A stretch of DNA of 64,000 bases. It comes from Octopus vulgaris (Eukaryota). Shown one piece after another: positions 19,611 to 28,026 of this stretch. The position numbers and the translations under genes are program-made. The notes beneath the pieces are model-generated. The model was not told the DNA's origin. It made no database searches and saw only the letters and a program-made list of their open reading frames with translations. The stretch's first letter is position 1. The number at the start of each line of letters is the position of its first letter. The DNA is taken from NCBI GenBank assembly GCA_951406725.2, contig OX597836.1, positions 20,708,001-20,772,000 on the forward strand, read 5' to 3'.

Positions 19611-20400
19611 CAGGGTATGATGGGTAAGTTGTCGCCATTTTATATTTTTAATTTCACGCATGTGTATTGTTGATTTTTGATTTTGTTGACAACAAAGTAT
19701 AGTAGGGTCAGTCGGGCACCATCTGTGATAAAAAACATCCCCATGATGCAATTCACTCTGCCAGAAATTTGGAGATGATATGCTGCACTGCTTGGCTTTC
19801 ACGCTGGAAGTTCCAATATGAACATTTCAGTGTATTTGGGTGTCAATCTGAGGACATGTACCGAGAGTGATAAAGATCAAACATCCAGTCAACATCATGG
19901 TGTTTCGAGTGATCACTAGGGCAATGTTATGCTTTCATTCATCTTCCCATACGGCCTCAGTTTCAACACAGAGGCCCTACATCAAATGCCTGGAGGAAGT
20001 AGTGCTGCCCTGGATCAAGAGTTTGGCTGCTGTAAGACCCTATGTCTGACAACAGGACTCTGCACCATGCCACACAAGCAGGAGAACCCAGTCATGGCTG
20101 TCAGACAATTTCTGTGACCACATCACTCCTAACATCTGGCCACCTAATTCCCCAGACTGCAACCCCCTTGATTATTGTGTGGGGTGCAGTTGAGTGAGAG
20201 ACCAACAAAACTCCTTGTAACACCAAAGATGAACTGCAGGTAAGGATTATGGCAGCATTCACCAAGTTAAACAAGGAGACCGTCCTGAAGGGTTGCAGAA
20301 GATTCCAAAGTCGTCTGGAATCTGCTGTAACTCTTGGTTGAAGCCAATTGCGATTTTATTGAATAAATTTACTCCTTAGTATTTCAATGATATTTTTTTG
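19611..20400 (+). mobile_element. Tc1/mariner superfamily DD37D (maT-type) transposon fossil, internally deleted
   Basis: TA-CAGGGTATG 5' end and an HTH-like N-terminus from 19743. Catalytic region QQDSAPCHTSRRTQSWLSDNFCDHITPNIWPPNSPDCNPLDY has 37 residues between the last two Asp. Contains stops and frameshifts. Confidence 0.88.
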
Positions 20401-24790: not shown

Positions 24791-26830
24791 CATATATATA
24801 TATACATATATATATATTTATATATATTACACACACACTCATGTATATATATATGTTGTTAAATATGCTGTTTTTTTATGTCAAGTTATATGTCTATATA
24901 AACAATAAATCTGTATATATAATAAATGAGAGAATGTTAAAGAGAAGAAAAAGAGAAATGATGGAGATGAGAAATATAGGTCGAATGTTATGAAAAGGAA
25001 GAAAAAGGTGTGATAATGGAGTGAGTGGGTGGAAGGGAAGGAAAGGATAGAAAGGGGGAAGAGGTAGCAAGAGAGAGAGGTGGGACATGGGGGGGGGGTG
25101 AAGGACAAGTCAGAATCTCAGTCACAGATTGAACAATTGAATCAAAAATATGTGCAGGGAATAAATATTTCCCATATACCCATATACACATACATATATT
25201 TGGGCACACACATACACACGCATGCGTAAGCATCATGCTTATACAGACTCGCACAATAAAGAAAAGCGTACATAGAGTTAACACAGATAACAAATATTTC
25301 TTTGCACAGTTTATGGTATTTAATAAAGGATAAATTTAGATTAGTAAACACTGATAGAAAAAACTTTAAGCAATATATTTACGTATGCAGAATACCTACA
25401 TGAATGTCTATATATAACATACATGTGTATGTGTGAATGTATGTAAGTATGTATGTATAAACATACATACAGATATGTGTTTATATTTATACACGCAGAC
25501 GCATTTTTATGTGTATATACACATACATATATTCAGATTCACCATCAATTTTCCAGCTGCGTTGGTTCCATACCCATGTTGGATTGAAAGAAATCACAAA
25601 ACAGTAATTCTGAGAAAATTCCAAGAAGGTTGTTGTCAATGTTATTAATAACTTTTTTCAATACTAAACCTTAAAGCAACACACCTTTGTTCATACGAAA
25701 GAAGCACGTTGTAAAGTTGGAAACATTCTTCCAACCCTTCAACAATGACAATATGACCAAATCTAATGCCACCTGCTAACCCCCTAACAACCACTGGGCC
25801 TCCAGCAGTCCCCGTCTTGTAGTACAATAGTCAAAGACATATTTTCCCCTTTCCTCTTTCATGGAAACATTAGACAAAGTTATGAAAACAGACTGGATAG
25901 CCATGGCTGGAAGAGCTTTTTCTATCATAAGGCAGACTGGCAGCACTGGCAGAGAGTTGGGCAAGATTCCTTCGGCTTCTTGTATTCTAACAGTACCACC
26001 TACAATGGCGCAATGCCAAACTTTACTGGCCGGTGCTGACAGCCTTGCTCTTGTTTAGATATAGGAGACATATTCACAGATAAATGACAGTCTTCCATGG
26101 TAAAAAAAAAAAAATCTCGTCCAGGATTCCACATACATGTGCAGATGGATGGTCAACCTTGACCAACAGAACCCCTTAACGATTTACAGAGGTTCAAAAC
26201 GAATACCATCTGCCTCACCTTCACTATGTTCAAGAATTCCAGGTTTTTTGAGAAGTGTAAAACCACCTCTTAGCCAATATTGTTCCCAGGTCTATCCTGA
26301 TCCAGAGTAGTAGCACCTGTCAAGATCCCAGTTATGGGAAATTAGTATATTAGGGCTTGTATGACAATGCATGTGAAGACTGGATCCAGCAGACTCTACA
26401 GGAAAAAAAAAAAAAACTTCATGGTCCAGTGGAGATGAAGGTGGCTGCATCAAAACATTTTGGAGTGCAGAGAGCAAGATGAGGTCAAGTAAGACATCTT
26501 GGTCAGTCTCTGCCTCCATCTCCATCCCTGGTCATCTTGACCTGATCTTGTCATTGATTGAAGATGGTCATGGTTGATGATGCGCAACTCTTCTTCACTT
26601 TAAACAGAGTCACTGTGCAAGTCATCAGTCATCCTTAACGATGACTAGATGTTCCTCGTTGTTCTGATGAATGAACCTAACATGTGGGTTGTGGGCTTCT
26701 GGCAAAATCCCTAGACACCAGCACTCTTCTCTGACTATATCAAAATAAAACTTCAGTTTACATATATTTTCCAGCAATGCTTATTAACCATCAACATATT
26801 CACAGCACAAGTTTTGATGCAGCACGAAGT

Positions 26831-26881
26831 TTTGTCAGTGAACAGGTCGCGGTCTCAAAGTGATGAAAATATTTTGACAAA
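26831..26881 (+). ncRNA. Minimal type-I hammerhead-like motif, G3-C8 variant
   Basis: TTTGTCA-GTGAACA-G-GTCGC-ggtctcaaa-GTGAT-GAA-AATATT-T-TGACAAA: 7-bp stem I, stem II with G-U wobbles, and palindromic stem III. Confidence 0.65.
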
Positions 26882-27397
26882 TTAAATTCAAATGTTGAAG
26901 TGAATCTAACGGTTTTTGTGTGTTTCTTAAATGGCTTATAAACACCTTCCACGCTGCAATTGTTTTCGTTCCAGCACACGATCTCAGATCAGGTCACTCA
27001 CTATGCAAGTACATCTCCGTAATCCCTTATTAACCATGTCCTAATACTAATGCAAAGGCATGTGGATGTTGCATTCATGATTGCAAGACCATGGTATTGA
27101 TTTCTGGACTGGGCAGTAGCACTGTGTTCTTGGGCAAAACACTTCATTTTCATGTAGTTCCAGTCCACTCATCCGTAGAGGAGTAACCTTGCAACAAACT
27201 GACATCCTGTTCAAGGGCAATGATGTGACCTTGGTCACTGTATGCCACGAAAACTGGGTAACTGGTCCTATGAACCCCACAACTTAAGACAGTACTTAGT
27301 TACTTCTGCTCATGAGAACAGGAATGACGAGTACTCATACATCATATCTGATCTGACTGCCATTATTTTTATTGCCAGTGTATGTGTGTTGCATGTA

Positions 27398-27615
27398 TAC
27401 TCTTTACTCTTTTACTCTTTTACTTGTTTCAGTCATTTGACTGCGGCCATGCTGGAGCACCGCCTTTAGTCGAGCAAATCGACCCCGGGACTTATTCTTT
27501 GTAAGCCCAGTACTTATTCTATCGGTCTCTTTTGCCGAACCGCTAAGTGACGGGGACGTAAACACACCAGCATCGGTTGTCAAGCAATGCTAGGGGGACA
27601 AACACAGACACACAA

Positions 27616-27648
<33 letters not shown>

Positions 27649-27814
27649 CATATATACAACAGGCTTCTTTCAGTTTCCGTCTACCAAATCCACTCACAAA
27701 GCATTAGTCGGCCCGGGGCCATAGCAGAAGACACTTGCCCAAGATGTCACGCAGTGGGACTGAACCCGGAACCATGTGGTTGGTTAGCAAACTACTTACC
27801 ACACAGCCACTCCT
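27398..27814 (-). mobile_element. SINE family 1, subtype B (young)
   Basis: Diagnostic GCAATGCTAGGGGG, AAGCCCAGTAC, ATAGCAG and CCAAGATG segments shared with the 37178 and 51427 copies. Confidence 0.88.
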
Positions 27815-28026
27815 ATGTGTATGTACAAATGGAAAAAAAAGTACTCAATGTCTAGTCAATTTCATCCATCCGATGCTCTTTATTCCTTCTGTTGCTACTC
27901 TGAGTTGTTCACATGTGTGCGTGTGTGCATGCATGCGCATGCACTATTCATTTTAGCTTGAACTAAATAAGCATATGAGAAACTGTGAGTAGCAATAGAG
28001 TGAATGAAAAAACCCTCCAGTTTCAA

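What the first reader, a model, noticed from the sequence alone, without database searches (positions are those of the whole stretch)
26831..26881. G3-C8 hammerhead variant (GUGAACA core)
A perfect 7-bp stem I (TTTGTCA/TGACAAA) closes exactly on GTGAACA and GAA-AATATT-T. Stem II GTCGC/GTGAT looks like CpG-decayed GTCGC/GCGAC. Both departures from CUGANGA are transversions that together restore the 3-8 pair, which random decay would rarely produce. The motif sits in a CpG-containing island (about 26800-27020) that looks like a repeat end, antisense to the host gene.
Basis: partly seen in the sequence, partly recalled or inferred. Interest (0 to 1): 0.75.

Follow-up and report, generated by a model that had tools for sequence, protein, structure and literature searches.

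The report
Swapped-core hammerhead in Penelope-like retrotransposon
This stretch is a worn copy of a hammerhead-shaped RNA motif in the end piece of a very abundant jumping gene, with two paired core letters swapped throughout the family, a natural form I did not find in the papers searched; the intact family RNA likely cuts itself only slowly, which is untested, and this lone copy is probably inactive.

Summary
The motif is real and is a family trait, not decay. It lies in a 208-bp insertion (26816-27023) flanked by a 12-bp target-site duplication. The insertion is the 5'-truncated end of a Penelope-like element (PLE): its last 93 bp encode the N-terminus of an octopus PLE protein. It sits antisense in a 29-kb intron of an MPDZ-like gene. 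In the two DNA runs re-laid on the motif alone, no other letter reached 4% at G3; the same held at C8 except for two unlisted C>G places in one run. Cleavage is unshown: RNA reads from two runs show no ends at 26874. Natural U3-A8 is published and engineered G3-C8 is partly active, but I found no natural G3-C8 in eight searches (two key papers were not available). This scan noted swapped-core PLE hammerheads before, in this genome and others. Verdict: new variant of a known kind; this copy is likely a fossil.

The parts
26816..27023 (+). 5'-truncated end piece (pseudo-LTR plus tail) of a C-terminal-endonuclease Penelope-like element; one copy of a very high-copy family
   Evidence: Summed contig depth rises from about 60 to millions between 26816 and 27023 in run X1, likewise in X4, X5, X15; loose ends pile at 26816 and 27022/27023; ORF homology
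26780..26791 (+). Left target-site duplication (12 bp exact; 13 bp with one mismatch)
   Evidence: Identical to 27026-27037; a contig of organism B appears to carry only one copy (inferred)
27026..27037 (+). Right target-site duplication
26792..26815 (+). 24 bp inside the duplications but not shared by the family; 26803-26819 is a near-duplicate of 26820-26837 (likely junction filler or local duplication)
   Evidence: Depth about 92 at 26806-26810 against more than 200,000 from 26816 in X1; sequence comparison
26816..26819 (+). 5' end of this copy; in longer family copies this G ends a branch-point/pyrimidine/CAG-like motif (putative 3' splice site of the pLTR intron) directly followed by ATG
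   Evidence: Loose-end majority before 26816 in X21 (210 reads, agreement 0.74), X22 (147, 0.66), X1, X4; splice role inferred, no spliced read seen
26831..26837 (+). Hammerhead stem I, 5' strand
26838..26844 (+). Core strand G3 U4 G5 A6 A7 C8 A9 (swapped 3-8 pair)
   Evidence: family state tables 1 and 3
26845..26845 (+). Extra unpaired G between A9 and 10.1
   Evidence: G>A below 1% in DNA contigs, 12-13% in RNA reads; an extra nucleotide here is conserved in PLE minimal hammerheads (PMC4209133), usually not G
26846..26864 (+). Stem II (5 bp) and 9-nt loop; this copy has two CpG transitions (26861, 26864) that turn G-C pairs, including 10.1-11.1, into G-U
   Evidence: hairpin -3.1 against -6.3 kcal/mol with majority letters
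26865..26867 (+). G12 A13 A14
   Evidence: no variant at 4% or more in X4
26868..26873 (+). A15.1 to U16.1: self-complementary 6-mer, predicted intermolecular helix III of a double hammerhead
   Evidence: Palindrome and dimer energies
26874..26874 (+). U17; predicted cleavage 3' of this base
   Evidence: Position by hammerhead numbering; cleavage not observed
26875..26881 (+). Stem I, 3' strand; the family variant 26877 A>G keeps a U-G pair
26931..27023 (+). First 31 codons of the PLE ORF, open to the end of the insertion
   Evidence: 28 of 31 identical to the N-terminus of P0122; only hit among 1.84 billion representatives is P0121, residues 1-25
26966..27023 (+). 58-bp optional 3' extension between two family 3' ends (ORF +35 and +93), likely the PLE tail
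   Evidence: Loose ends behind 26964/26965 and 27022/27023 with AT-rich, low-agreement flanks; offsets; comparison with PMC11167929
3896..33046 (-). Host intron of an MPDZ/PATJ-like multi-PDZ gene; the motif is antisense to it
   Evidence: tblastn of P0001 and P0003 maps consecutive residues to 33256-33047 and 3895-3509 on the minus strand; names

Best explanation
The 51 bases are a CpG-worn copy of a minimal type I hammerhead-shaped motif with a reversed G3-C8 core pair, carried in the 5'-truncated end piece (26816-27023) of an abundant Penelope-like retrotransposon; the intact family RNA likely self-cleaves slowly after position 26874 as a dimer, while this lone antisense intronic copy is likely inert. 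Shown: the fold, the family state of G3, C8 and stem II, the element ends, the duplication, and the ORF start. Inferred mechanism: tandem elements are transcribed into a more-than-unit RNA with two hammerheads. The AU palindrome lets the two pair into a double hammerhead, probably with help from the element's protein. G3-C8 keeps the geometry that positions the 2'-OH of nucleotide 8, so cleavage would occur but more slowly than with C3-G8. Reverse transcription would start inside the ORF (+35 or +93) on mostly uncut RNA and run back through the hammerhead; early termination leaves short copies such as this one. Step probabilities: PLE end piece 0.95; G3-C8 in the founding element 0.95; descent from a hammerhead 0.9; measurable cleavage by the family RNA 0.6; this copy inert 0.9.
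For: Only descriptor hit in the window, 0 of 200 shuffles at the observed stem lengths. Family majority restores a perfect G-C stem II in 4 of 4 contig runs. In X4 all 10 places with a variant at 4% or more are listed and none is a conserved core position; in X1 G3 has none. The only common stem I variant in DNA contigs keeps pairing (26877 A>G). Extra nucleotide after A9, G10.1-C11.1, palindromic helix III, U-rich upstream and AU-rich downstream flanks all match the published PLE minimal-hammerhead consensus. Modelled double hammerhead -25.4 kcal/mol against -14.0 for two closed monomers (majority letters). Peptide chain to RT plus C-terminal GIY-YIG proteins. Target-site duplication, two 3' ends inside the ORF and head-to-head inverted copies are described PLE traits. 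Engineered C3G/G8C partly restores cleavage in an Anolis PLE hammerhead, which is protein-assisted and not needed for insertion in vitro (PMC11167929).
Against: No cleavage evidence: no pile-up of read ends in 1217 and 1007 RNA reads (table 6), and 26875 is not among the listed 5' loose ends in DNA (24 of 2222 rows shown; 24 of 440). No Rfam hammerhead model matches, even at E 10. Copies are too uniform in depth-weighted contigs to show the core more conserved than its flanks, and I saw no two-sided compensatory change within the family. Two C>G places in X1 and two G>C places in X22 are counted but not listed, so a minor C8>G or G3>C class is not excluded there. The modelled dimer is no more stable than two open monomers (-25.4 against -24.8). 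The motif stacks several likely slowing features (G3-C8, U17, all-AU helix III). Pfam RT and GIY-YIG hits in the long relatives are all below the curated cut-offs (3 and 2 of 15 proteins). I never saw the hammerhead and a full-length ORF in one DNA record.
Confidence: 0.6

Rival explanations
1. Dead ribozyme, live structure: the PLE lineage lost cleavage, and the fold is kept (or merely carried) as a protein-binding, splicing or translation signal in the leader; G3-C8 is a frozen accident of the founding element.
For: No read ends at the cut; copies commonly contain the whole hammerhead, so templates were uncut; hammerhead mutants do not affect PAc insertion in vitro; Naiad PLEs spread without canonical hammerheads.
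Against: All other 9 fixed core positions and the Watson-Crick 3-8 pair are intact; P about 0.006 for two random core hits giving this result; PAc also lacks read ends at its cut yet cleaves in vitro.
Confidence: 0.27
2. The family is a non-autonomous retrozyme or SINE-like derivative of the pLTR that replicates through a small circular RNA made by double self-cleavage.
For: Unit length about 200 bp and tens of thousands of copies; animal retrozymes are reported to derive from pLTRs (10.64898/2026.07.22.740005); an unchecked scan note describes a swapped-core 166-bp satellite in this genome.
Against: This copy is single, with no second copy in 64 kb; it ends inside the PLE ORF and begins by variable truncation; no head-to-tail (back) joint for the unit among the joints shown (15 of 214, 15 of 33).
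Confidence: 0.09
3. This particular copy has been co-opted by the host and acts on the MPDZ-like locus (antisense RNA processing).
For: It lies in a gene intron and appears shared by organisms A and C.
Against: Wrong strand for the pre-mRNA; both stem II CpG pairs decayed, including 10.1-11.1; no partner for dimerisation; the site appears empty in organism B.
Confidence: 0.02
4. Chance resemblance, or private mutations of one decayed canonical hammerhead.
For: Folding z-score is unremarkable; no Rfam match.
Against: G3 and C8 are the family state; descriptor shuffles; PLE context.
Confidence: 0.02

Closest known systems
Minimal type I hammerheads of metazoan Penelope-like elements (Cervera and de la Pena 2014, PMC4209133; read: main text parts 1-2 of 4, supplement file 2 parts 2-3 of 3)
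   Same: Type I topology, extra nucleotide after A9, G10.1-C11.1 (family), GAAA, short palindromic helix III as in Drosophila virilis, NUH site, position in the pLTR just after a putative intron end, mostly single dispersed copies.
   Different: Core is GUGAACA. Of the 44 alignment rows I read, 41 have C3-G8, 3 have U3-A8 and none G3-C8. The extra nucleotide is G (1 of 44 rows). The published descriptor (cuganga; gaaannuh) would miss it twice.
Natural U3-A8 core variants (Perreault et al. 2011, PMC3088659, section 8 and passages read; also PMC4209133)
   Same: Natural covariation of the 3-8 Watson-Crick pair.
   Different: U3-A8 needs two transitions and keeps pyrimidine-3/purine-8; G3-C8 needs two transversions and reverses the polarity.
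PAc (Poseidon of Anolis carolinensis) hammerhead and its engineered C3G/G8C double mutant (PMC11167929, main text read)
   Same: Hammerhead near the ORF start in the pLTR; genomic copies end about 100 nt into the ORF at two sites; no RNA-seq ends at the cut; the double swap is partly active.
   Different: In PAc the swap is a laboratory mutant and the ORF starts in stem II; here it is the natural state, the ORF starts 56 nt after the cut, the optional tail is 58 nt, and the protein is of the linker-zinc-finger type.
Neptune/Nematis-type C-terminal-endonuclease PLEs (as described in Craig et al. 2021, PMC8557442; passages read)
   Same: [quoted passage not shown]
   Different: Clade not resolved (no reference sequences, no tree); only 31 codons are in the window.
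Non-LTR retrozymes of animals (PMC7229834; bioRxiv 10.64898/2026.07.22.740005; passages read)
   Same: Short, high-copy, type I hammerhead, pLTR ancestry.
   Different: Retrozymes are tandem 170-400 nt units with canonical cores and circular RNAs; this is a single truncated copy ending in an ORF.

Membership tests
PLE minimal type I hammerhead | Stem I of 3-7 bp closing the motif (type I) | tested here: met
   7 bp
PLE minimal type I hammerhead | Core CUGANGA (or published UUGANAA) | tested here: not met
   GUGAACA in this copy and in the family
PLE minimal type I hammerhead | Watson-Crick pair between 3 and 8 | tested here: met
   G3-C8 complementary; pairing in 3D inferred
PLE minimal type I hammerhead | Extra nucleotide between 9 and 10.1 | tested here: met
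   G26845; published consensus has H, G in 1 of 44 rows
PLE minimal type I hammerhead | Stem II of 3-7 bp starting G10.1-C11.1 | tested here: met
   Met in the family majority; G-U in this copy
PLE minimal type I hammerhead | GAAA, palindromic 15.2-16.2/loop III, NUH site | tested here: met
PLE minimal type I hammerhead | Located in a PLE pseudo-LTR | tested here: met
   56 nt upstream of a PLE ORF start at the insertion's 3' end
PLE minimal type I hammerhead | Self-cleavage, dimer-dependent | not testable with these tools
   Energy model favours the dimer over the closed monomer; no read ends at the site
Rfam hammerhead families | Match to a covariance model | tested here: not met
   0 hits at gathering score in the window; no hammerhead among 10 hits at E up to 10 in 26000-28000
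C-terminal EN+ PLE (Neptune/Nematis type) | Single ORF with RT then GIY-YIG bearing CCHH, and a CX2-5CxxC linker | tested here: met
   Met in relatives linked by homology, not in the window itself; Pfam hits below cut-off
C-terminal EN+ PLE (Neptune/Nematis type) | Insertion ends inside the ORF start, with an optional tail | tested here: met
   Ends at +35 and +93; 58 nt against the usual 30-40
C-terminal EN+ PLE (Neptune/Nematis type) | Target-site duplication; inverted 5'-truncated copies | tested here: met
   12-bp duplication; joint 26815/26826 on opposite strands in 12+5 contigs and 65+35 reads
C-terminal EN+ PLE (Neptune/Nematis type) | Spliceosomal intron in the leader | tested here: inconclusive
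   Acceptor-like motif in loose-end majorities; no spliced form seen
C-terminal EN+ PLE (Neptune/Nematis type) | Clade placement by RT phylogeny | not tested
   No named reference PLE proteins were in hand
Non-LTR retrozyme | Tandem head-to-tail units | tested here: not met
   Single copy in 64 kb; no back joint among joints shown
Non-LTR retrozyme | Abundant circular RNA | tested here: inconclusive
   About 84-94 reads per million, both orientations about equal; libraries not designed for circles

The most novel reading that the evidence does not exclude
A whole PLE lineage runs on a deliberately slowed hammerhead: the reversed G3-C8 pair, U17 and an all-AU dimer helix keep most transcripts uncut as templates, and cleavage fires only when two copies pair on the element's own protein. 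Swapped-core hammerheads would then be a hidden class of tens of thousands of genomic copies, invisible to CUGANGA-based searches, and some PLE families scored as hammerhead-free would carry them.
Probability: 0.3. Interest if true: 0.65.

Novelty: new variant of a known kind. Interest (0 to 1): 0.42.

Why it matters
The C3-G8 pair is among the most invariant features of natural hammerheads. G3-C8 is known as a partly active laboratory rescue, and I found only U3-A8 reported in nature. A G3-C8 core fixed in a successful retrotransposon family across four organisms would be natural confirmation that the pair, not the letters, is what matters. It shows that standard descriptors and Rfam models miss a large family. 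It also offers a natural test of an open question, what hammerheads do for Penelope-like elements, by comparing a likely slow natural core with its C3-G8 counterpart. The individual copy has no evident function.

Tried and rejected
No whole genome is held for this window, so copies could not be aligned one by one; family statements rest on two read/contig lays. Rfam: nothing relevant. Self-BLAST: no second copy in the window. Pattern scans: 4 viral-contig matches to a 17-mer are chance; the fixed-loop pattern gave 0 in viral, genome and metagenome contigs; the variable-loop pattern gave 67 metagenome matches, 0 of 67 with a blastn hit to the element, nearly all in GC-rich contigs and none with both a palindrome and a stem I above 2 bp. 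Related PLE loci: 0 in viral contigs, 1 in genome contigs (L072) with no hammerhead by my descriptor. No RNA holder was listed as on record in the run index. ESM Atlas: P0121 uninformative (0.75); P0123 matches unnamed eukaryotic clusters with DUF8422 on a minority of members. PDB profile search gave only weak RT matches. Whole-element fold is not more stable than shuffles (z +1.35), so no support for a rod-like retrozyme RNA. Coding explanation for the core: the frame from ATG 26817 stops at 26883-26885 and has no Pfam hit; rejected as the reason for conservation. The idea that copies preferentially start at 26816 was dropped: loose ends there are explained by longer copies running on upstream of this truncated one. 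Scan look-ups by sequence, relatives and near place were empty. Lunse et al. 2017 (PMC5785218) and Przybilski and Hammann 2007 (PMC1986816) were not held and could contain natural or kinetic data on G3-C8.

Full report
Observation. The letters are as described. Stem I (26831-26837 with 26875-26881) and stem II (26846-26850 with 26860-26864) are the minimum-energy fold, though the energy alone is unremarkable (z -1.46). A descriptor for type I hammerheads with any Watson-Crick 3-8 pair finds only this site in 64 kb on both strands. It finds 0.02 hits per shuffled window at loose settings and none in 200 shuffles at the observed stem lengths (descriptor written after seeing the motif). Two details were missed: an unpaired G at 26845 between A9 and stem II, and the fact that 26868-26873 is a perfect palindrome. 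No Rfam family matches at gathering score, and no hammerhead appears among 10 weak hits at E up to 10.

The motif belongs to a very abundant repeat. No genome is held, so I laid public contigs and reads on the region. On 26300-27400, four contig runs from four coded organisms gave 20,018, 6,084, 14,404 and 8,009 laid contigs. Summed depth jumps from tens to hundreds of thousands or millions between about 26816 and 27023. Element-to-flank depth ratios are 22,000-101,000; the tool warns that summed depth is no copy number, so I read this only as order 10^4 or more.

Family state. At 26861 and 26864 the family has C in 90-96% and 84-96% of depth in 4 of 4 contig runs, so stem II is GTCGC/GCGAC and this copy has two CpG transitions, one at the conserved 10.1-11.1 pair. 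In raw RNA reads the shares are 57-65% and 81%, so such decay is common. A second lay on 26806-26945 counted variants at 4% or more (40 of 69 rows shown, the rest reconstructed from the per-kind counts). In X4 all 10 places are listed (26826, 26827, 26829, 26854, 26861, 26864, 26877, 26889, 26911, 26913) and none is a conserved core position. In X1 there is no G>C or G>T place and all six G>A places are listed, so G3 has no alternative at 4%. One A>T and two C>G places in X1 are unlisted; they may be the low-depth positions 26806-26810, but C8 is not formally excluded. In both RNA runs all C changes are listed and none is C8; G3 cannot be fully cleared there (two or three unlisted G>A, one or two G>T, and two G>C in X22). 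The conclusion is that G3-C8 was in the element that amplified. The data do not show the core more conserved than its flanks, and the only common stem I change in DNA is one-sided (26877 A>G, a U-G pair).

The carrier is a Penelope-like element. An ATG at 26931 opens 31 codons that run to the element's end. This peptide has one hit among 1.84 billion representatives, an uncharacterised Octopus bimaculoides protein starting at the same Met, and is 28 of 31 identical to the N-terminus of an Octopus sinensis model, P0122. P0122 is 78% identical over 151 residues to an Octopus vulgaris protein, P0123, which hits 29 of 4,420 candidate long proteins. P0122 also aligns from residue 11 to one of these directly (27% over 215, E 2e-18). 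[quoted passage not shown] Pfam agrees only weakly: RVT_1 in 3 of 15 and GIY-YIG in 2 of 15, all below cut-off. The octopus origin of the window is inferred from these names.

Insertion anatomy. A 12-bp direct repeat flanks the insertion (26780-26791, 27026-27037). In organism B a contig of depth 15.2 stops at 26792, and a piece with the same depth starts at 27038/27039 by the distance-to-end column. I infer an empty site; the joint itself was not among the 15 of 214 shown. Organism C has contigs over both junctions (33 and 30 letters inside the element; the second is just under the tool's 31-letter rule). Family copies end at two places, 26964/26965 and 27022/27023, followed by AT-rich unrelated sequence, that is 35 and 93 nt into the ORF. 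In the Anolis element PAc, reverse transcription starts 111-118 nt into the ORF and the tail lies between two start sites (PMC11167929). A recurrent opposite-strand joint at 26815/26826 (12 and 5 contigs; 65 and 35 reads) shows head-to-head copies, another described PLE arrangement. Longer copies continue upstream of 26816 with a branch-point-like CTAAC, a pyrimidine run and CAG. This recalls the D. virilis intron that ends at helix I; splicing is not shown. The insertion lies in a 29-kb intron of an MPDZ-like gene on the minus strand, with no second copy in the window.

How it most likely works. The anatomy matches the published minimal PLE hammerheads in everything but the 3-8 letters. With majority letters, a nearest-neighbour model gives -25.4 kcal/mol for a double hammerhead joined through the palindrome, -14.0 for two monomers with helix III closed and -24.8 for two open monomers; the window copy gives -17.4, -6.0 and -18.0 (core tertiary contacts are not modelled). 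G8C alone costs about 10^5-fold and C3G partly rescues it (review PMC8495972); the same rescue was seen in PAc, whose hammerhead needs protein to cleave and is dispensable for insertion in vitro. I infer a slow, dimer- and probably protein-assisted ribozyme in tandem transcripts, with uncut RNA as the usual template. This fits copies that contain the whole motif. Against activity: 1,217 and 1,007 reads from about 6% of two RNA runs lie in both orientations about equally and show no pile-up of ends. PAc shows the same blank, so this weighs little. This copy is single, antisense to its host and decayed in stem II, and is likely inert.

Comparison and novelty. Natural 3-8 covariation is reported as U3-A8 (PMC3088659 section 8; PMC4209133). 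Of 44 alignment rows read in the PMC4209133 supplement, 41 are C3-G8, 3 U3-A8 and 0 G3-C8, and its descriptor would miss this motif (file 1 was not searchable and part 1 of file 2 was only term-searched). Eight literature searches showed G3-C8 only as an engineered variant. A 2026 Octopus vulgaris repeat annotation has no occurrence of hammerhead or ribozyme in its main text (PMC13282606). Other papers seen as passages only: PMC6765202, PMC7229834, Craig et al. preprint and PMC8557442 (supplement term search 87), 10.64898/2026.07.22.740005 (supplements not seen), PMC3884650, PMC6962438, PMC6155905. Lunse et al. 2017, which surveyed PLE hammerhead variants, and Przybilski and Hammann 2007 were not held, so absence from print is not established. 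Hammerhead numbering and the role of the G8 2'-OH are established knowledge. Earlier scan notes report swapped-core PLE hammerheads on other pieces of this genome and in other genomes; they are unchecked, and sequence look-ups did not show whether they concern this family.

Verdict. It works like a PLE minimal hammerhead and sits where one should, but it fails the literal core consensus and has no cleavage test, so I file it as a new variant, not a plain member. Interest 0.42.

Noticed in passing
window 26817-26885 (+): A 22-codon upstream ORF starts right after the putative splice acceptor, runs through the hammerhead and is in frame with the PLE ORF start at 26931; no Pfam hit.
   Followed up: partly
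window 26806-26945, RNA runs X21 and X22: A>G at 11-18 places and T>C at 15 places in RNA reads against 2 and 2-4 in DNA contigs. Could be A-to-I editing of double-stranded repeat RNA, but contigs hide rare variants and no DNA of the same individual was laid.
   Followed up: no
window 26874-26876, RNA runs X21 and X22: About 10% of reads have A at the predicted cleavage nucleotide and 5-7% carry a 2-base insertion behind 26876; both are rare in DNA contigs. Possibly a transcribed subfamily or a few expressed copies.
   Followed up: no
window 26847, RNA runs X21 and X22: 96 and 41 reads leave the alignment here with 95-97% agreement: probably one well-expressed decayed copy inside a host transcript.
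   Followed up: no
window 25788-26670: Middle-repetitive sequence (depth up to about 7,000 in X1 over 26300-26670); the frame at 25788-26036 (+) has a YHKADW stretch that I recall from LINE ORF2 proteins; no useful Pfam hit.
   Followed up: partly
window 27077-27295 and 27379-27816: A second high-copy repeat (depth up to 433,000 at 27114-27150 in X1) and a SINE-like repeat with up to 17 matches in the window; organism C's contig stops matching at 27389.
   Followed up: no
window 20050-20190 (+): Fragment with a weak DDE_3 transposase match (E 4.4e-4, below cut-off).
   Followed up: no
P0122: The Octopus sinensis gene model joins the PLE N-terminus to a methyltransferase domain; likely a chimeric annotation, possibly exon capture.
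   Followed up: no
L072:11-2295: A PLE ORF fragment in a bacterial metagenome-assembled genome, probably host-animal contamination; no hammerhead found in the contig by my descriptor.
   Followed up: partly
window 26803-26837: A 17-bp near-tandem duplication at the 5' junction; organism C's junction contig has 17 gaps and may lack it.
   Followed up: partly
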